From positions 1 to 64,000 of the IMG/VR virus record IMGVR_UViG_3300021964_007119: a stretch of DNA of 64,000 nt. One strand, given 5' to 3'. Shown piece by piece: positions 3,001 through 51,553 of this stretch (position 1 is its first letter; every line of letters starts with the position of its first letter). Origin of the DNA: a virus. Made by a program: the position numbers and the translations under genes. The notes beneath the pieces were generated by a model. The model saw nothing but the letters and a program-made list of their open reading frames with translations, was not told the origin of the DNA and searched no databases.

Positions 3001-6000
3001 TATATCCCGTGTTAACTCTACCGGTTGAAACGATAACTTGTCCATCTGTGTATGATGAACCTGTTCCTGGTGCTTCACTTATAGATGATGATAATGCTCC
3101 TAGTCCGTGATAGGTACTAGTATCAATTGATTGTGATAGTCTACCCCAAGAACGAGATACGAATAAAAATCCACCTAAATTTTTATCATCATCTGGAAAT
3201 GCTCTTGATGAACTATTTATCCTAACATACTCAGATGAAAATCCTGTTTGTGTTACTTTTTTAATAAGTGCTACTTCTCCGTTTTCAAAACCACTAACAT
3301 TATCTACTGACATTGATGTTGTCGATTTTCCAACTCCAATATCAGAACCACTAATTGTTGTTGAATTCGCTACCCACAATTGTCCACCAACTGCATTTAC
3401 GGTTTCTTTTTCAAATACCGTAGTTCTTAAAGTTCCTCTAATTTTTGCTTCGTGTACTTCTAAAAATCCATCTTTAAATGATGATAATCTAAAACCTCTA
3501 AAGTCTGAAATATAATTTGATGATAAAATATCACCAGATGATGAAATGATTAAATTATTACTACTAATTTTATCACTTCCTAATTCCCAACCACCTATTC
3601 TACCACCACTAAAGAATACATCAGAACCTGATATTCCACCACTTGAACTTAGTATTAATTTATTATCAAAAGATTTTATTTGAGTATTATTTACTGCGAA
3701 ACCACCAATCGATGCTGATACAAATCTTGCATATCCAGCAGTTGTTATTTCTGCTAAAGCATCACCTACAGCTGGCGTTTGTATAGAATTAGCTGAGAAA
3801 GTTCCTTGAACATCAACATCACCTGTAATCGTACCACCAGTAATCAATACATTTGATGCTGTTAAATTTCCGTCTGCACTAACTTGAAATTTGGAAGCTG
3901 ATATAAAGTTATTCTGTTTACCGCCTTGTGTTGGTATTCCTGATGCTGAACCAGATATGTAGAATGAATTAGAACCAGTTGTAAATAAAGCGTTTGAATC
4001 TATATTGAAACTTGCGATAGAACCAGTTGAAAATCTTGCATATCCGTCGGCTAATATTTCTGCTTTAAATGGTGGGCCTCCAACAGGAACTCTAATTTGA
4101 TTTGCTGTTGCAGCATTTACTGTGACACTATCACCAATCACTAATGAACCTGTTATTGTTCCACCAGCTATGTGTATGTTTGAAGCAGAGATATTTCCTT
4201 CTGTATCAAGATAGAATTGAGAAGAACTAATTTCTAAATTACCATTAGAACCACTTATAAATGCTCCATTTGACCCAGACTTTCCAAAAAAGAAATCTTT
4301 TGATTGAACTTTAAATAATGAACCACTAGATTCACCCGTTTCTGTTCTATATTGTAAAAATGAATCATCTCCGTCGTGAAGTTCTAACCCAATACCACGA
4401 TAGTTATCTGAACCAGATAAGTTGGGCAATACTGACCCAGAAAATATCATAAATCCTGAACCAGTTCCGTTTGCTTTCATTGACGCTGACGAGAATCCGT
4501 GATACCCTACTGAACGAATAAATGCTGAATTTGTTCCTCCTATCTCTACACCTTGTCCTATTGTATTTCCTACAAATAATGAACCAGTTAATAAATTATT
4601 ACCACCTTGAATTACTTCGTTTTCTCCTTCAAATTTCACTTTATCTTTAAAAGCAATATAATCTGATTTTTTACCATCTCTGTTTAAAAATTCAAGTCTA
4701 AAATCAAATATATCTGGTTTTACTCTTAATTTTGGCATTGGAGCTACAAATGTGAATTCATCTGGTGAAAAATTAGTATCATTACTTGGAATTAATTCTA
4801 CTCTACCCAAATGTAATTCTCCAGATTCTATTTCTATCTGTAATTTGGTATCATCATTTACAACTACATTTCTTTCAAATGAAGGTCTGAATGGTATTCT
4901 TACAATACTAAAATCTATAAACTCTCCAACTGAATTATTTGATTTTTTTGATTTTAATTCTATAACTTCACCATAATTTTCATCTTCTGTTTTTGTGATT
5001 TTTATCGGGTCACCAAAAGAAGATACAGCATTACCAAGTTTAATACTTGGATTGTTTTGATTAATTTTACTTCCACTAATATAAAATCTTATTTTCGCTC
5101 TAGGTTGTTTTAAAACAGTTCCATCATCTTGAAGAATATCTTTTTCACCTACTTTTAATATTGGTCTTAGTTTTAATTCATAGTCAACATTTGGCCTCAT
5201 TTTTAAATTTGATAATTTTGTTTCAAATACGATAGTCTCGTCCGCTCCACCATTTGAACCAGATATATGAACTCCACCCATCATACTAGGTGTTAATGTG
5301 TCACCAAATGAAATACTACCACTTGTAGAAATACTAGGAACTTTTGACCCTTTTACTCTTCTTTTTAATACCCAATGTTTATTGAGTTGATTTCCACTTT
5401 TAAATACACCTATTTTTTGAGATAATGTTGGTGAACTTCTGTCATTTAAAACATCTGAAGATTCTACCAATCTATCACTTATTAAAGTAAATGGTGTATT
5501 ATTAGTTAAAGCTCTAGTGTATGTTTTTACTCTATGTACATCACCAGAAAATGTTTTCATATTTTTTATGGTGATTTCTGCAAAAGACCTAAATATATTT
5601 ATACTTTCACCAGAACCACTATTTTGTGTTTGACCTGCTGGTTGAAAATCTATTTCATATGAAGTTGATTCATATGGAACTTTAAATTTTGTTCCATAGT
5701 CTTTTTCTCTTCTACTTTCAATTGTAAATGGTCTATCAATTTCCAATAAATCTGGACTATGAACGGCTACAATAGAAGCTGTTAATGATGAACTTATAAA
5801 ACTCTGTCCAGCTACATTACTAATTCTTTCCAAATTAACTTTTGGTTCTGCTCTAAATATACCACCTGCAAACTCACTTCTAAATGAATTAGAACCACTC
5901 GCATAAATTAGTGTTCCTTTTCCTGTCCAATTAGGGTCTGGAATACTTGGTGGTAGGACTACCACCGTGTCGTCTTTTATGGGTGGATATTCATCATCAA

Positions 6001-14793: not shown

Positions 14794-15081
14794 GGAGATA
14801 AGGATGATGTATTGATTTCTGGTTTTCTCCTGCCCTCCTTCGGTGGTTCTATTGAATAGCATTTAAGACTTGTTCGTTAACAATGACTTTCGTCACCACC
14901 ACACTCTCTCTCTTGGTGTGGACACTTCTCCCGGAATGTATTTCTACAATAAGGACTATTTGTTCAATATAAGCGACTTACTCAGTATGTCCTCTCGTGG
15001 ACTCCTGATGCGAAACTAAGTTTAAATCGATTCTACTCGATAAACTCCTGGTTTATTTTGATTGTCATCATTTTTATCTCC
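14794..15081. ncRNA. Candidate 288-nt structured RNA bounded by a 16-bp terminal inverted repeat
   Basis: GGAGATAAGGATGATG / CATCATTTTTATCTCC; internal hairpins TGAC-TTTC-GTCA and CCACAC...GTGTGG; GC-richer than flanks; no long ORF. Confidence 0.5.
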
Positions 15082-15098
15082 TTGTGTTTTGTTTTGTA

Positions 15099-15160
15099 TA
15101 AAAAAAGAGAGCCGTGATTTTAAGTTTGGTATATGGTGGAAACTAAAATTTGGCTCTCTT
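15099..15160 (-). terminator. Long intrinsic terminator hairpin downstream of the 411-nt RNA
   Basis: AAGAGAGCC...GGCTCTCTT followed by T-run on minus strand. Confidence 0.7.
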
Positions 15161-15168
15161 AAAAATAT

Positions 15169-15579
15169 TGGTGGAATTTATTGGGGATGTGAGGCTAATG
15201 ATTACTCACAATTTTCGTCTTGGATTTTTCATACTCTAAACTTTACATCTATCAGTTACGATAGTTCATCTTAAGGTGGTTATTCCTCATTGATGTGAAT
15301 ACAACTTCTATGCAAATACCTTATCTCTCCAAGTGTAGATTGTTCGGTCATAATAATAGGACTTCAGTTTTACCCTTACCTATAATAGAGTCATAAGAAT
15401 CATCTTATCTTTTTTACGAAAATACATTAGACGATATCTGTCGATATAGACGATTAGAATATTTACCAATCATCAAGTCACCACAACTTCGTCCGGATTA
15501 CTTTATGGGCTTCAAATGTCTACCCATTTTTCAGTCAATCCCATATAGAGTTAATTACTCTCTATACTTTCATAATTCC
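15169..15579 (-). ncRNA. Candidate 411-nt large structured ncRNA, ends paired, 3' ACCA
   Basis: 5' GGAAUU pairs with AAUUCC-ACCA; several internal helices with G.U pairs favouring minus strand; terminator downstream; no credible ORF. Confidence 0.7.
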
Positions 15580-15651
15580 AATTTTCAAATAACTAATTAC
15601 ACTTATATATATAAGTCAAATCGCCCAAAATACATTTTTTCTTGCATTTTT

Positions 15652-18600
15652 TTAATCAAATTTAATTTTACTAAATTCTGTATCTTTCGTGATTTCAAGT
15701 AGTGTATCCACTGCATCTCTCATAGAGTCAACATGCGATACAATCAAAGCAAATTGGAATTGTCCTTTTAGATATTGGAATAAATTATAAACTGAATTTA
15801 TATTATCACTATCCATTGTTCCCCAACCCTCATCAATCGCTAAGAAATTACTTCTTGGTAAATTACTTACATTTATTAAACCAACTCTCATTGCAAGAGA
15901 ACTGATAAATCTTTCCATACCACTTGATAGTTCTAGTGGCCACTGGTTAACATCATCATACACAATATTACTATTAATGTTCTTTCCGTCCATATCTAAC
16001 GACATTTGGAAATCAACTAGTTGTCCTAAGATATTATTTATTTCTCCTTCAATCGTTGGTATTGCTTTTTCTAACAATTCATAAGGAACACTATCTCTTC
16101 TAACAGCATCTAAGTAATAACGATATGCTTGATTTTTGTTTTCTAATTCTTCTATTTCTTCAATCTTCCTGTTGATGTTTTTCATTTCACTATCACCAAC
16201 CTTGATGTCGGCGTGAACTTCTGTTATATCACCAGTTAAGTTTACTATAACATCCTCTACATCATCTAAATTATTTTGAACAACTTGAATATCTTCTTTT
16301 ATTTTTTTATTATATTTGATATTACTTTTTTGTTCATTGTATTGTTTTATATCTTGTTCAATAGTTTCAATTGACGAATTTATATTTTTCTTTCTTTCTT
16401 TAAAATATTGTAGATTAGTTTTTAGTTCTCTTTCTCTAAATTCTGCTTCAACTAAACTTGATTTATATTCATCATAATTTTCTTTTTGCTTGATAATAGG
16501 ATTTAGTGTTTCTATTTCTTCGTCCATTTTGTTCTTTTTCTCAAGATAGGTTGCGGCCAGCTCTTTATCTTTTTCTAAGTTCTTTTCGGTTTCCCTAGCA
16601 TCAATTGTTAATGGATTACTCATACAATGTTCACAATCGTCGTCCCAAGTAACACCTTTTAATTTTTCGGTCTTGTCTAATTTGTTTCTAACCTCTACTT
16701 TTAATTTATCTATTTCTATTTGAAATTCATCTCTACTTTCTTGTAAAGTTTGAAGTTTTGAATATTGTTCATTTATATTATCAGATTCATATTTTGTAAT
16801 ATTAATTTCTATTTCGGTTAATAATTGACTTATGTCATTAAATTCTGAATTTGTTTTATCTATGTCTTTAGTAACTTCTTGAAAATCTTTATTTTGACTA
16901 AGTAAATCATTTTCTAATTTATCTATATCTTGTATATTATCATCAACAACTTTTAGTTTTTTAGTCAAGTTAATAATTTTAGTATTTAATTTGTTTTGTT
17001 TTTCTACTTGTTTTTCTTTTTTGGAAAGTAAGTCTGTTTGTTTAACTTGTAATAAAGTAGTTTGTTTTTGTAATTCTGCTAAGTTTTTACTATAATCAAC
17101 TTTATTAAAATCTCTTAACAAAGTTTGTGTTTCTGATATTTTATCATTAGCAGATTGATACAACGAATCGAAAATATCTGTTCCCATAAATGTAGATAAT
17201 AACTCTTTTCTTTCCTTTTGTGTTTTGTCAATGAACACTGTGAAGTTATTTTGGGTGGATAGTGTTGATAAAATAAAATCTTCGTATGTTCCCACCACCT
17301 GATTAATATTGTAGTTTGTCGTTCGTCTTTGGTCACCATTTAAACTAATAGTCTGTCCACTATCATCAATCATCCAAAAATTAACATTTACTTTTACATG
17401 CCCGTCTCTTTCTCTTTTTGATGCTTTTCTTTCAATAAAATAATCTAAACCACCAACTTCAAAGTTTACTTTACAACTAAAATTCTTTTTCTTGTTATTT
17501 AGAACTGATGCCGCTTTTGTGGTTCTTGATGTAACATCAAATAAACAAAATGATAAAGCATCTAATAAGGTTGACTTACCGGAAGCATTTGGAGCAAACA
17601 TACCAACAATTCCGTCAAGTTGTGTAAAGTCTACATAATTGTTTTCACCATAACAAAACATATTTGAAAATTCAAAGTGTTTTAATTTCCAATTAATATT
17701 TCGTTTAACTCTTGCTGGTGGTAGTTCATTATTGATTTCTTCATTTAATTTTTTAATCTTAACTAATATATTGTCTGTAATGGCGTGGTTTCGTTTTAAA
17801 TAATCTTCAATCAATTCGTATTGATAATCAGTATCATTTACATCACCTATAACCATTTCACTATTAGACCTACCTACATCTCGTCTGTCTACTTTTGTAA
17901 TTGTGACATCTTTAATTCCGTATCTGTGATGAATAATAGCTAAGGCTTTTTTAAGTTCAATACCATTGGTATTGGATACCCTAACTCTTAATCTTGCTTT
18001 TTTAGGCATTCCTTTTACATCAGGAACAATACCTTTATCAATGTCTATTGTGTAGTATCCGTAATCATTTGGTATTTCAATGTATTCTGATTTTTTTGTT
18101 TCTACTTCCCACAACAAATATCCGTGTCCAATACTTTCTCCGTGATTTTGTTGAATCAGAGAACCACAATAAGCAATAGTTTTTTCTTCATTTAAGTATT
18201 GTCTTTTATGAATATCACCAATTAGACCCATATCGTAATCGTCAAAGTAATCTATTGTAACCTTACCTGGTAGTGAAAATCCTACATCAGTTTTTGACCT
18301 ATCAACTGTTCCGTGATATAAAACAACCTTTGTATCAGCTTCAAAGTCTTTTGCTTTAATGTAGTTCTCTTCATCTTCCCAAACATCCCAAACTACAAAA
18401 CTCATATCGGCTATGTCGTAAACGCCTGAGCGTTTTAAGTAATGTAAGTTGGGTAAATTTAAATTATTGATGATAGGTGTTAAAACATCTAATCTATTCA
18501 AGTTATTTAAATTACAATCGTGATTACCCGTTATAACTATCGTAGGACAAATCTCTGAAAGAGATTTTAAAAAACGAGAAGTTTGGTCTACGAGTTCGGG

Positions 18601-46676: not shown

Positions 46677-46678
46677 AG

Positions 46679-46752
46679 TGGGAGCACAAGGACTCGAACC
46701 TTGAACCAAGAGCTTAAAAGGCTCCTGCTCTACCAAATTGAGCTATACTCCC
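46679..46752 (-). tRNA. tRNA-Lys(UUU)
   Basis: GGGAGTA/TGCTCCC acceptor, anticodon loop CT-TTT-AA, GGTTCGAGTCC; no encoded CCA. Confidence 0.95.
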
Positions 46753-50899: not shown

Positions 50900-50944
50900 T
50901 GTAATCTCCTTAAGGTTTGAGTTTTAGTTTTTCCTTTTCTTATG

Positions 50945-51016
50945 AGGCGTGTGTAGGAATCGAACCTACGAACAATGGTTTTGCAAACCACGACATTGCC
51001 ATTCTGTCAACACGCC
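50945..51016 (-). tRNA. tRNA-Cys(GCA)
   Basis: GGCGTGT/ACACGCC, loop TT-GCA-AA, U73. Confidence 0.93.
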
Positions 51017-51020
51017 GTTG

Positions 51021-51105
51021 TGGTAAGTGATGGATTTGAACCACCGTATCTCATACGAGAGTCAGATTTACAGTCTGATGCTTTTAACCGCTCAGCCAAC
51101 TTACC
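51021..51105 (-). tRNA. tRNA-Tyr(GUA)
   Basis: Loop CT-GTA-AA, long variable arm. Confidence 0.95.
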
Positions 51106-51106
51106 G

Positions 51107-51180
51107 AGCTTCCAGTAGGATTTGAACCCACGACATTCTCATTACAAATGAGATGCTCTACCAAACTGAGCTATGGAAGC
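51107..51180 (-). tRNA. tRNA-Thr(UGU)
   Basis: GCTTCCA/TGGAAGC, loop TT-TGT-AA. Confidence 0.95.
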
Positions 51181-51185
51181 GTTTG

Positions 51186-51257
51186 TACTCCGACGGGTAG
51201 TCGAAACCCGATTTTATGGATGAAAACCATATGTCCTAACCATTAGACGACCGGAGC
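51186..51257 (-). tRNA. tRNA-Glu(UUC)
   Basis: GCTCCGG/TCGGAGT, loop TT-TTC-AT; T-stem closes U-A instead of G-C. Confidence 0.9.
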
Positions 51258-51480
51258 ATTACTTATAGAAGCTTTGTTATGTCCTTGAAGAATAGCATTT
51301 AAGTCTTGTTCTGACAAGGTGTGGAATTATTTAATCGGTTTTCCAATCATTTCCGAACTACCTATAAGTGTTTAATTTAAAGGTTAATTTTTCTCAGACC
51401 TCTGTTTATAACCAGTCCAATACAAAAACCTAATAATACTAATAATATTTCTTGCATGTTTATCTCCTTTTATATGTTTG

Positions 51481-51553
51481 TGGAGCTGACAGGAATCGAA
51501 CCCGCGACCTACGCAGTGCAAGTGCGTCGCTCTTCCAACTGAGCTACAGCCCC
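51481..51553 (-). tRNA. tRNA-Ala(UGC)
   Basis: GGGGCTG/CAGCTCC with G3.U70, loop CT-TGC-AC. Confidence 0.96.

What the first reader, a model, noticed from the sequence alone, without database searches (positions are those of the whole stretch)
15169..15579. 411-nt ornate non-coding RNA ending in an acceptor-like helix plus ACCA
Seen: GGAAUU...AAUUCC-ACCA closes the RNA. Helices include GUAUAGAG/CUCUAUAU, GGAUUG/UAAUCC, AUGGGU/GCCCAU, UAGG/CCUA, CUAUC/GAUAG and GUGAG/CUCAC, with G.U pairs indicating the minus strand; a terminator follows. There is no T arm or G3.U70 (unlike tmRNA) and no GAGGAAAGUCC (unlike RNase P RNA). Known: phages carry large RNAs of unknown function such as GOLLD and ROOL. 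Inference: a compact relative of these or a new class.
Basis: partly seen in the sequence, partly recalled or inferred. Interest (0 to 1): 0.8.

Follow-up and report, generated by a model that had tools for sequence, protein, structure and literature searches.

The report
Double-core manA RNA in marine phage
This 411-base stretch of an uncultured marine phage encodes a real, intricately folded RNA, but it is a two-core version of the known manA RNA (a family recently reported to build RNA-only cages), not a tRNA-like molecule or a new RNA class.

Summary
The RNA is real and lies on the minus strand. It is not a new class. Rfam's manA model (RF01745) matches it twice in tandem: 51.0 bits at 15184-15372 and 21.4 bits at 15383-15566 (gathering score 55.2). 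A close relative scores 57.3 and others up to 73.4.

I collected 67 distinct full-length homologues from viral contigs. On these, 99 proposed pairs are 97.9% paired, against about 40% when the partners are slid, and 61 pairs change on both sides.

The fold is nested, not two beads on a string. One outer manA scaffold (P0, P1-P9, pseudoknot) carries a second manA core (P1'-P7') on a new helix set into P8. A covarying pseudoknot and complementary loops tie the two cores together.

The closing helix covaries. The ACCA tail occurs in only 3 of 67 sequences, so there is no tRNA-like end. A covarying terminator follows, and no antiterminator was found.

Best reading: a self-contained phage RNA gene, a new architectural variant of manA, whose loops suit RNA-RNA assembly.

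This scan found the same double manA on two other genomes (e1-6074940, e1-6078515).

The parts
15603..15629 (-). Conserved upstream block TTTGGG-N10-TATATATATAA (promoter-like; inferred, not shown)
   Evidence: A block of this form lies upstream in 61 of 72 homologues that have enough upstream DNA. It is the only TTTGGG..TATATAT match in the 64-kb window. The sigma-70 consensus scan found no promoter here.
15582..15593 (-). Conserved single-stranded leader GUUAUUUGAAAA (GUUUUUUGACAA in most relatives)
   Evidence: A leader of this form is present in 71 of 72 homologues: GTTTTTTGACAA in 38, GTTTTTTGAAAA in 12, and close variants in the rest. Its role is unexplained.
15574..15580 (-). P0 closing helix, 5' strand UGGAAUU
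   Evidence: Pairs with 15172-15178. The helix covaries across 29 distinct strand pairs.
15543..15567 (-). P1 hairpin of the outer core (GUAUAGA/UCUAUAU)
   Evidence: helix 1: 98.1% paired; pair 42-61 reads GC 31, CG 19, UA 14, AU 2, UG 1.
15538..15542 (-). PK1 5' strand GGGAU (manA pseudoknot)
   Evidence: Pairs with AUCCC at 15184-15188. Paired in 67 of 67 but never varies. It sits at the pseudoknot position of the Rfam manA consensus. The canonical S-CREM1 manA has GGAUG/CAUCC there.
15500..15535 (-). P2 (ACU/AGU) and P3 hairpin (AUGGGU/GCCCAU), flanked by the manA signatures UGACUGAA and AUAAAGU
   Evidence: helices 3 and 4. The signatures align to the manA consensus.
15429..15494 (-). P4 multi-stem of the outer core, enclosing P5 (loop GUGGU), P6 and P7 (loop GACA)
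   Evidence: helices 5, 6, 8 and 9. All five P4 pairs change on both sides.
15416..15423 (-). P8 5' strand AUUUUCGU (long-range helix)
   Evidence: Pairs with ACGAAAAU at 15211-15218. Six fully complementary haplotypes; all pairs standard in 59 of 67.
15393..15408 (-). P8 inner hairpin (AUAAG/CUUAU) with loop L8 AUGAUU
   Evidence: The stem covaries (AUAAG/CUUAU, ACAAG/CUUGU, AAUAG/CUAUU, UAAAG/CUUUA, AACAG/CUGUU). Its loop is complementary to L9 (KL1).
15386..15390 (-). P10 5' strand CUCUA (new helix that carries the inner core)
   Evidence: Pairs with UAGAG at 15234-15238. Standard pairs in 66 of 67; five complementary haplotypes.
15243..15383 (-). Inner manA-like core: P1' (conserved 17-nt loop), P2', P3', and P4' enclosing P5' (loop GUUGUA), P6' (loop ..UAACCAC) and P7' (loop GUAACU)
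   Evidence: helices 13-19 (97.7-100% paired, most with changes on both sides). Inner P6' stem. This core forms the body of the 51.0-bit manA hit.
15219..15223 (-). PK2 3' strand CCAAG, pairing with L3' CUUGG (15329-15333)
   Evidence: Paired in 67 of 67; six haplotypes, all complementary (CUUGG/CCAAG, CUCAG/CUGAG, CUCUG/CAGAG, CUUCG/CGAAG, CUUAG/CUAAG, UUUGG/CCAAG).
15189..15209 (-). P9 hairpin (GUGAG/CUCAC) with loop L9 UAAUCAUUAGC
   Evidence: helix 20. L9 AAUCAU (15198-15203) is complementary to L8; the pairing covaries as AUGAUU/AAUCAU (36), ACGAUU/AAUCGU (19) and GCGAUU/AAUCGC (5).
15184..15188 (-). PK1 3' strand AUCCC
   Evidence: See the PK1 5' strand.
15172..15178 (-). P0 closing helix, 3' strand AAUUCCA
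15169..15172 (-). ACCA after the closing helix: a lineage-specific tail, not a CCA end
   Evidence: Present in 3 of 67 distinct sequences (the window and two near-identical relatives).
15100..15160 (-). Intrinsic terminator: outer stem AAGAGAGCC/GGCUCUCUU, conserved inner hairpin (UUUUAGUUUCCACC..AAACUUAAAA), then U7
   Evidence: Folds at -16.2 kcal/mol, z -7.04, with 0 of 200 shuffles folding as well. Of 77 homologues with at least 110 nt downstream, 59 have the inner motif plus a covarying outer stem plus a T-run.

Best explanation
The element is a stand-alone phage gene for a roughly 411-nt 'double-core' member of the manA RNA family.

Architecture (shown by covariation). It is a single interlocked fold. 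An outer manA scaffold consists of closing helix P0, P1, the GGGAU/AUCCC pseudoknot, P2-P7, P8 with its inner hairpin L8, and P9. P8 is opened into a three-way junction. A new helix, P10, carries a second manA-like core (P1'-P7') from that junction. The inner core is pinned by a second pseudoknot between its L3' loop and the P10/P8 joining strand.

Gene structure (shown). An intrinsic terminator follows in most members, and its outer stem varies with no matching change in the RNA body. The same module (leader, RNA, terminator) sits in two unrelated gene neighbourhoods.

Loops (complementarity shown, use inferred). Three loop pairs are complementary:
- L8 with L9, which covaries
- outer L5 GUGGU with inner L6' ACCAC
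- outer L7 ACA with inner L5' UGU

How it works (inferred). The RNA is released as a free, end-clamped particle. It acts through its shape and loop-loop contacts, within one molecule or between copies. This follows single-core manA RNAs, whose L5-L7' and L8-L9' kissing loops build pentamers, decamers and a 60-mer cage in vitro. I matched the preprint's loop numbers to the Rfam consensus myself; the L6 GNRA loop fits.

Its role in infection is not known. I give about 0.85 to 'self-contained double-core manA RNA gene' and about 0.35 to 'forms multimers in the cell'.
For: Family assignment:
- Two tandem full-length manA matches lie on the minus strand: 51.0 bits (E 6.5e-12) and 21.4 bits (E 0.004).
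- These are the only two manA matches in the 82,179-nt record.
- 19 of 42 related records have manA matches, and 9 of 42 score over the cut-off.

Structure:
- RNAalifold, run de novo on the 67 sequences, predicts 91 pairs, 56 of them with compensatory changes, including the long-range helices.
- For my 99-pair model, 97.9% of cells are paired against 81.8% in shuffles and 39-42% when slid. 61 pairs change on both sides, and 0 of 500 shuffles reach the covariation score.
- P8 has 6, P10 has 5 and PK2 has 6 complementary haplotypes; KL1 has 3.
- P0 covaries.

Gene structure:
- Terminator.
- There is no excess complementarity between the RNA body and either terminator strand. Mean longest match is 6.95 vs 7.61 in shuffles, and 5.38 vs 5.72, over 55 sequences.
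- Context differs between clades. An SSB-like gene lies downstream in 56 of 67 loci, while the window clade (5 loci) has the RNA after an SbcC-like gene and small ORFs downstream.
- The window holds no SSB, UvsX or exonuclease homologue at E 1e-5.

Comparators and expression:
- The canonical manA of cyanophage S-CREM1 (96.6 bits) sits between tRNA-Leu and tRNA-Asn with 1 and 0 nt of spacing, which means it is a released RNA rather than a 5' UTR.
- In vitro self-assembly of manA is reported in preprint 10.64898/2026.07.01.735769.
- Contigs of four metatranscriptome-labelled runs cover the RNA at 95-100% likeness. These are contigs only, so this is a weak hint.
Against: - The window copy scores 51.0 bits, just under Rfam's gathering score of 55.2.
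- The transcription start was not determined. The sigma-70 scan finds no promoter on the minus strand at 15580-15660, so co-transcription with the SbcC-like gene, whose stop lies 59 nt upstream of the leader, cannot be excluded in the window.
- PK1 never varies, and KL2 and KL3 rest on one small covarying clade each (3 sequences). These three are therefore compatible with the data, not proven.
- GGAUU can alternatively pair locally with AAUCC (98.3% paired).
- The sequences are related, so cell counts overstate the number of independent events.
- In 56 of 67 loci the RNA lies about 180 nt upstream of a co-oriented SSB-UvsX operon. That position would also fit a cis-regulatory leader.
- No raw reads were on hand, so expression, RNA ends and strand are not shown.
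- Self-assembly of this longer form is untested. The preprint's constructs are all under 200 nt.
Confidence: 0.8

Rival explanations
1. A cis-acting riboswitch or attenuator. The folded RNA senses a ligand or a protein and controls read-through of the terminator into the downstream genes (SSB-UvsX-exonuclease in most relatives).
For: manA was first proposed as a riboswitch candidate in 5' UTRs (PMC2864571, passages read). In 56 of 67 loci a co-oriented SSB-like gene begins about 180 nt after the RNA. A terminator follows directly. GGAUU has two mutually exclusive partners, AAUCC locally and AUCCC at the 3' end, which could in principle act as a switch.
Against: No segment of the RNA body is more complementary to either terminator strand than shuffled strands are. 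The terminator's outer stem changes freely while the RNA's 3' end stays constant. The window clade has different neighbours on both sides. In several relatives a block like the RNA's own upstream block recurs after the terminator, ahead of the SSB gene (alignments). The canonical phage manA of S-CREM1 sits inside a tRNA array.
Confidence: 0.12
2. A tRNA-like or tmRNA-like RNA whose closing helix acts as an acceptor stem and whose ACCA end is aminoacylated or recognised by tRNA enzymes.
For: In the window the 7-bp terminal helix is followed by ACCA. Phages do embed manA among tRNAs.
Against: ACCA occurs in only 3 of 67 sequences. The sequence runs on into a terminator. ARAGORN finds no tRNA or tmRNA here. 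The Rfam scan at E up to 10 lists no tRNA, tmRNA or RNase P match in 14900-15900. There is no T arm.
Confidence: 0.02
3. A new RNA class, or a compact evolutionary relative of GOLLD or ROOL.
For: It is a large, ornate, phage-borne RNA of unknown function. A blastn search against 50,697 phage records finds nothing.
Against: Both halves give full-length manA matches, and relatives score above the family cut-off. No GOLLD or ROOL match appears at E up to 10.
Confidence: 0.02

Closest known systems
manA RNA motif (Rfam RF01745; Weinberg et al. 2010, PMC2864571)
   Same: Shared features:
- P1 followed by the pseudoknot 5' strand
- the UGACYGAA and AUAARGU signatures around the P3 hairpin
- the P4 multi-stem with three hairpins
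- the L5 GUGGUG loop
- a UAACCA loop
- the P9 hairpin followed by the pseudoknot 3' strand
- L8/L9 complementarity
- a marine phage habitat
   Different: - It has two cores in one chain of about 411 nt, against about 190-215 nt for canonical manA.
- P8 is not a local hairpin. It is a three-way junction that carries the second core on a new helix, P10.
- There is an extra closing helix P0 and an extra pseudoknot PK2.
- GUGGUG sits only in the outer core and UAACCA only in the inner core, in L6' rather than L7.
- The window copy scores 51.0 bits, under the cut-off of 55.2.

I found no description of such a form. Searches. The word 'tandem' occurs 0 times in the preprint's main text.
Cage-forming manA RNAs of Ren et al. 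2026 (bioRxiv 10.64898/2026.07.01.735769)
   Same: Same family. The loops the preprint names as intermolecular contacts (L5-L7', L8-L9', L3-L8') have counterparts here that are complementary, and L8/L9 covaries. My mapping of their loop numbers onto the Rfam consensus is an inference.
   Different: Their constructs are under 200 nt and single-core. Here the partner loops are split between two covalently joined cores, so the contacts may form within one molecule. Assembly of this form is untested.
manA of Synechococcus phage S-CREM1 (OP535465, 10215-10429)
   Same: A phage-borne manA that is a released RNA rather than a leader. It has the same pseudoknot position (GGAUG/CAUCC) and the same core signatures.
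   Different: S-CREM1's copy is single-core and scores 96.6 bits. It is cut out of a tRNA array, with tRNA-Leu 1 nt upstream and tRNA-Asn 0 nt downstream. The window RNA instead has its own leader, a closing helix and a terminator, and lies about 31 kb from the window's tRNA cluster.
GOLLD and ROOL RNAs (Kretsch et al. 2025, PMC12286853)
   Same: Large, ornate RNAs of phages and prophages with unknown function. They form RNA-only multimeric cages in vitro (passages read). This is a 'works like' comparison only.
   Different: No sequence or structure similarity: no Rfam match at E up to 10. GOLLD and ROOL are longer (659 to over 800 nt) and often lie near tRNA islands.

Membership tests
manA RNA (RF01745) | Covariance-model score at or above Rfam's gathering score (55.2 bits) | tested here: inconclusive
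   The window scores 51.0 bits (E 6.5e-12, full length 1-192), just under the cut-off. A relative whose neighbouring SbcC gene is 99% identical scores 57.3, and others up to 73.4; 9 of 42 related records are over the cut-off.
manA RNA (RF01745) | P1 hairpin followed by the pseudoknot 5' strand (GGGaG), which pairs with the 3'-terminal CuCCC after the last hairpin | tested here: met
   GGGAU (15542-15538) directly follows P1, and AUCCC (15188-15184) directly follows P9. They are paired in 67 of 67 sequences but never vary. S-CREM1 has GGAUG/CAUCC at the same places.
manA RNA (RF01745) | Conserved UGaCUGAAUAA ... UAAgGU flanking the P3 hairpin | tested here: met
   Outer core: UGACUGAAAAA...AUAAAGU. 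Inner core: UGACCGAACAA...AUAAGGU.
manA RNA (RF01745) | P4 multi-stem enclosing three hairpins, with L5 = GUGGUG and L7 = uaACCA | tested here: inconclusive
   Both cores have the multi-stem, with covariation. The outer core has L5 GUGGU(G) but L7 GACA. The inner core has L5' GUUGUA, and its UAACCA lies in L6' rather than L7'. The two signature loops are therefore split between the cores.
manA RNA (RF01745) | P8 as a local two-part hairpin | tested here: not met
   The P8 outer stem pairs 15423-15416 with 15218-15211, across 197 nt. It encloses the L8 hairpin and, on helix P10, the whole inner core. This is the architectural departure that makes it a variant.
manA RNA (RF01745) | P9 hairpin whose loop is complementary to L8 | tested here: met
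   AUGAUU pairs with AAUCAU. All six pairs are Watson-Crick in 60 of 67 sequences, with three covarying haplotypes.
tRNA-like / tmRNA | Acceptor stem with a conserved 3' CCA, a T arm, and detection by ARAGORN or Rfam | tested here: not met
   ACCA occurs in 3 of 67 sequences. ARAGORN finds nothing at this place. No tRNA or tmRNA row appears at E up to 10.
GOLLD / ROOL | Match to the family covariance model | tested here: not met
   Neither family is among the 6 matches listed at E up to 10 for 14900-15900, nor in the gathering-threshold scan of the whole window.
Terminator-type riboswitch | An alternative (antiterminator) pairing between the aptamer and the terminator | tested here: not met
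   The longest complementarity between the body and the terminator strands is no greater than for shuffled strands, in 55 sequences.
Terminator-type riboswitch | Ligand-dependent change of structure or of termination | not testable with these tools
   This needs in-line probing or in vitro transcription.

The most novel reading that the evidence does not exclude
The double-core manA is a natural gene fusion that turned quaternary contacts into tertiary ones. The kissing loops that hold neighbouring single-core manA subunits together in rings and cages have been divided between two covalently joined cores: GUGGU in one and ACCAC in the other, plus ACA and UGU. The molecule is then either a closed 'pre-paired dimer' or a directional building block for an RNA-only assembly with a new geometry. 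Marine phages would make it as a free particle during replication.
Probability: 0.3. Interest if true: 0.8.

Novelty: new variant of a known kind. Interest (0 to 1): 0.55.

Why it matters
manA has been an orphan 'riboswitch candidate' since 2010. In 2026 it was reported to form RNA-only cages in vitro.

A widespread natural form bears on that finding. I collected 79 distinct sequences from viral contigs, and one Pelagibacter-labelled MAG contig also holds it. In this form a second core is built into the first, and the partner loops are split between the two cores. That gives a ready-made test of whether those loop contacts matter in nature, and a new cryo-EM target.

It is also a worked example of an RNA family evolving by nested duplication.

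The fact that it is a portable unit of leader, RNA and terminator, found in two gene neighbourhoods, argues that phages need the free RNA. That shifts the question of manA's function away from gene control.

For annotation, it shows that Rfam's model reports this form as two tandem sub-threshold or borderline hits. One of those hits is a chimera of the inner core with the outer P9 and pseudoknot.

Tried and rejected
Searches that found nothing:
- blastn ('distant' mode) of the window RNA and of a major-clade RNA against 50,697 phage records gave no match.
- I looked for the RNA in the nearest named phage, Microcystis phage Mel-JY01 (SbcC 38%, UvsX 54% identical), and in the huge phage LR756508. 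Neither has any manA match over the whole record. Mel-JY01 has only 116 nt before its SSB-like gene and no gap after its SbcC-like gene.
- 19 records with SbcC relatives at 43-46% identity gave 0 manA matches. They are fragments, so this is not proof of absence. L012 was not held and was not searched.
- The genome-contig scan returned 2 stretches. L146 (a Bacteroidales MAG) has no manA match and is a chance pattern hit.
- The sigma-70 promoter and terminator scan found nothing at the RNA. Its terminator rule allows loops of 3-8 nt, so it cannot see this long hairpin.

Ideas rejected or left weak:
- TTGACA in the leader as a -35 box. A start downstream of it would leave out the P0 and P1 5' strands, which covary.
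- GAUU (L8) pairing with AAUC at columns 417-420, as RNAalifold drew it. Those pairs never vary, and the AUCC there is taken by the covarying PK2.
- The all-against-all scan for covarying columns was swamped by G.U-tolerant pairs that track phylogeny. I used it only as the lead to PK2 and inner P6'.
- The single-sequence fold is only weakly better than shuffles (z -2.10, 4 of 100 shuffles as good).

Metatranscriptome contigs:
- In X5, X6 and X10 no contig was laid on 15602-15750 (the SbcC coding part).
- One X10 contig ends at 15579.
- Contigs cannot show RNA ends or levels, so I draw nothing from this.

Other:
- Supplements of PMC2864571 and of the 2026 preprint were closed. They may show manA variants that I could not see.
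Full report
WHAT IS THERE

On the minus strand, the window reads 5'-GGAAUU (15579-15574) ... AAUUCC (15178-15173) ACCA (15172-15169). A long hairpin and a U7 run follow. The stretch lies 59 nt downstream of the stop of a 1049-aa SbcC-like gene (phrog_77, E 1.1e-50). It holds no minus-strand ORF longer than 29 aa. The window is part of an 82,179-nt IMG/VR virus record estimated to be 44% complete. The nearest named phage by SbcC is Microcystis phage Mel-JY01, at 38% identity.

KNOWN-FAMILY SCANS

At Rfam's gathering thresholds the whole window gives only six tRNAs. ARAGORN gives the same six tRNAs and no tmRNA.

A permissive scan of 14900-15900 (E up to 10) lists six matches.
- Two are full-length, tandem, minus-strand matches to manA (RF01745, gathering score 55.2): 15184-15372 at 51.0 bits (E 6.5e-12) and 15383-15566 at 21.4 bits (E 0.004).
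- The other four are weak, far sub-threshold hits to eukaryotic or enterobacterial families.
- GOLLD, ROOL, tmRNA and RNase P are not listed.

The two halves align to each other and share the manA signatures UGACYGAA, AUAARGU and GAAGUUGU. These are the only manA matches in the whole record.

RELATIVES

- Twenty-three viral contigs encode SbcC relatives. The four closest (76-99% identity) keep the RNA in the same place, with compensatory changes.
- Scanning the records behind 42 loci with the manA model gave matches in 19 of 42, and 9 of 42 were over the cut-off. The strong hit (up to 73.4 bits) was always the downstream half, and in six records a weak hit lay directly upstream.
- Two pattern scans of viral contigs returned 47 and 81 stretches, giving 79 distinct extended sequences.
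- Seven were cut off by contig ends. After trimming and removing duplicates, 67 distinct full-length sequences including the window were aligned as A3.
- One more copy lies on a 16-kb contig of a MAG labelled Candidatus Pelagibacter sp. TMED203 (55.5 bits). That is a weak host hint, because MAG binning can capture phage DNA.
- blastn finds nothing among 50,697 deposited phage genomes. Mel-JY01 and the huge phage LR756508 have no manA match at all.

STRUCTURE

RNAalifold on A3, with no input from me, predicts 91 pairs, 56 of them with compensatory changes. Its key result is that the RNA is not two beads on a string. Two segments in the outer half, AUUUUCGU (15423-15416) and CUCUA (15390-15386), pair with ACGAAAAU (15218-15211) and UAGAG (15238-15234). 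Together they enclose the whole second core.

My 99-pair model, counted on A3, gives 97.9% of cells paired. Column shuffles give 81.8%, and sliding the partners by 1-3 columns gives 39-42%. Sixty-one pairs change on both sides, and 0 of 500 shuffles reach the observed covariation score. Because the sequences are related, these cell counts overstate the number of independent events. The haplotype counts are the fairer measure:
- P8 has six fully complementary versions.
- P10 has five.
- PK2 (L3' CUUGG with CCAAG) has six, all complementary, in 67 of 67 sequences.
- L8/L9 (AUGAUU/AAUCAU, ACGAUU/AAUCGU, GCGAUU/AAUCGC) has three, with all six pairs Watson-Crick in 60 of 67.

The inner P8 hairpin also covaries. 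MAFFT misaligned the closing helix P0, so I tested it with a script. It is 7-12 bp in 61 of 67 sequences and 6 bp in the other 6, with 29 distinct complementary pairs, against 4.3-5.6 bp for shuffled flanks.

Three contacts are less secure:
- The pseudoknot GGGAU/AUCCC is paired in 67 of 67 but never varies.
- GUGGU/ACCAC is paired in 63 of 67, with one small covarying group (AUGGU/ACCAU, 3 sequences).
- ACA/UGU is paired in 67 of 67, with one covarying group (AUA/UAU, 3 sequences).

READING IN manA TERMS

The Rfam consensus printed has P1, the pseudoknot, P2, P3, a multi-stem P4 with hairpins P5 (loop GUGGUG), P6 (loop gaaa) and P7 (loop uaACCA), a two-part hairpin P8, and P9.

The window RNA has all of these once, as an outer scaffold. 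In addition:
- a closing helix P0;
- a P8 opened into a three-way junction, whose third arm (P10) carries a second P1'-P7' core;
- PK2, which pins that inner core.

This means the 51-bit Rfam hit is a chimera of the inner core with the outer P9 and pseudoknot.

The signature loops are split between the cores. GUGGU(G) occurs only in the outer L5 and UAACCA only in the inner L6'. The outer L7 (GACA) is complementary to the inner L5' (GUUGUA).

- Five of the six named internal helices are confirmed.
- GGAUUG/UAAUCC can form (98.3% of cells paired) but shows no change on both sides. It also conflicts with pair 73-110 (GC 33, AU 32, CG 2) and with the pseudoknot.
- ACCA follows the closing helix in only 3 of 67 sequences. 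In most relatives the helix simply runs on as UUUGGAAUU/AAUUCCAAA. The tRNA-like reading therefore fails.

ENDS AND CONTEXT

The hairpin after the RNA folds at -16.2 kcal/mol (z -7.04) and is followed by U7. Of 77 homologues with enough downstream DNA, 59 have a conserved inner hairpin, an outer stem of at least eight different sequences, and a T-run. No part of the RNA body is more complementary to the terminator strands than shuffled strands are (55 sequences). I therefore see no antiterminator.

Upstream, a TTTGGG-N10-TATATATA block occurs in 61 of 72 homologues. A leader of the form GUUUUUUGA(C/A)AA occurs in 71 of 72. Most relatives have a variable, covarying small hairpin between the two, which the window lacks. 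That the block is a promoter is my inference. The consensus scan sees none, and no raw reads were available.

Gene neighbours differ between clades. In 56 of 67 loci a co-oriented SSB-like gene (phrog_1192) starts about 180 nt downstream and is followed by genes for a UvsX-like recombinase, an exonuclease, a DnaB-like helicase and ribonucleotide reductase. The window clade (5 loci) has the RNA after SbcC, with small ORFs downstream. The window has no homologue of the SSB, UvsX or exonuclease genes. The same module of leader, RNA and terminator thus sits in two neighbourhoods.

Contigs from four metatranscriptome-labelled runs cover the RNA at 95-100% likeness. Contigs cannot show transcription, RNA ends or strand.

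WHAT IS KNOWN

- Weinberg et al. 2010 (PMC2864571; passages read) described manA as a riboswitch candidate from marine metagenomes and T4-like cyanophages.
- Rfam 14 (PMC7779021; passages read) corrected its structure.
- In cyanophage S-CREM1 (PMC9964418, passages read; record OP535465) the canonical manA (96.6 bits) lies between tRNA-Leu and tRNA-Asn with 1 and 0 nt of spacing. There it is a released RNA.
- A July 2026 preprint (10.64898/2026.07.01.735769; outline, passages and section 8 read) reports cryo-EM structures of manA RNAs under 200 nt forming octamers, decamers and a 60-mer icosahedral cage. These are built from pentamers held by L5-L7' and L8-L9' kissing loops (or by L6-P6' GNRA-receptor and L3-L8' contacts).
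- The preprint's loop numbers fit the Rfam consensus: L5 GUGGUG, L6 gaaa, L7 uaACCA, and L8/L9 complementary. That mapping is mine.
- GOLLD and ROOL cages are described in PMC12286853 (passages read).
- I found no description of a double-core manA in three full-text searches. 'Tandem' occurs 0 times in the preprint's main text. The supplements were closed.

VERDICT

The element is a self-contained phage gene for a nested, two-core variant of the manA RNA. Its architecture is well supported by covariation. How its loops are used, and what it does in infection, are inferred.

Two earlier follow-ups of this scan reached the same 'double manA' reading on other genomes, there upstream of ssb (e1-6074940 and e1-6078515). 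I saw those notes only after my own structure was built, and they are not independent evidence.

This window adds three things: a second genomic context (after SbcC), the demonstration that ACCA is lineage-specific, and the negative antiterminator test.

Noticed in passing
window 15135-15148 (minus strand), inside the terminator: The inner part of the terminator hairpin (UUUUAGUUUCCACC...AAACUUAAAA) is conserved in sequence in 59 of 77 relatives, while the outer stem changes freely. Its loop CCAC resembles the ACCAC of inner loop L6' and could pair with L5 GUGG. I have no explanation for it.
   Followed up: partly
window 15582-15593 (minus strand): The leader GUUUUUUGA(C/A)AA just before the closing helix is more conserved than the helix itself (71 of 72). 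It contains a perfect TTGACA in most relatives, yet cannot be this RNA's -35 box. Its role is unknown.
   Followed up: partly
window 15356-15383 (minus strand), the P1' loop: The 17-nt loop of P1' (UAAGGGUAAAACUGAAG) is nearly invariant across the 67 sequences. The canonical manA has a 4-nt loop there. Its GGG could compete with GGGAU for the 3' AUCCCC.
   Followed up: no
window 15033-15071 and 14794-15081: Directly after the terminator comes AAGGAG plus a 12-codon micro-ORF (MMTIKINQEFIE*), inside a fold-back element that another note of this scan had flagged (e1-6114947). Close relatives L004, L005 and L048 keep a similar RBS and micro-ORF start.
   Followed up: no
window 15354: Contigs of all four runs laid, and the relatives L004 and L048, lack one base that the window has in the joining strand after P1'. 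The window's extra base is a minority variant or an assembly slip.
   Followed up: no
L150 (Synechococcus phage S-CREM1, OP535465 10132-10501): The canonical manA RNA is packed between tRNA-Leu and tRNA-Asn with 1 and 0 nt of spacing, within a run of tRNAs, wcaG and abiF RNAs. tRNA-processing enzymes would release it, which argues against the 'cis-regulatory' label in that record.
   Followed up: partly
L145 (NHJA01000041.1, MAG Candidatus Pelagibacter sp. TMED203) 4250-4760: A complete double-core manA with leader, 5' hairpin and terminator lies on a 16-kb contig binned with a SAR11 genome. It could be a prophage, a binned phage contig or a host hint.
   Followed up: partly
L035, L082, L106, L112, L117, L120, L132 (flanks of the RNA): A subgroup of relatives lacks the TATATA block and the conserved terminator. 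Instead they carry other conserved flanks: upstream ...GACTCGACTCGTAAG, and downstream GGTGAGGCTTTCTTACATATAC-like motifs. These may be a different promoter type.
   Followed up: no
window 46678-46752 and 50944-51553: Six tRNA genes (Lys, Cys, Tyr, Thr, Glu, Ala) lie on the minus strand, about 31-36 kb from the RNA. Unlike manA in S-CREM1, this RNA is not in the tRNA cluster.
   Followed up: no
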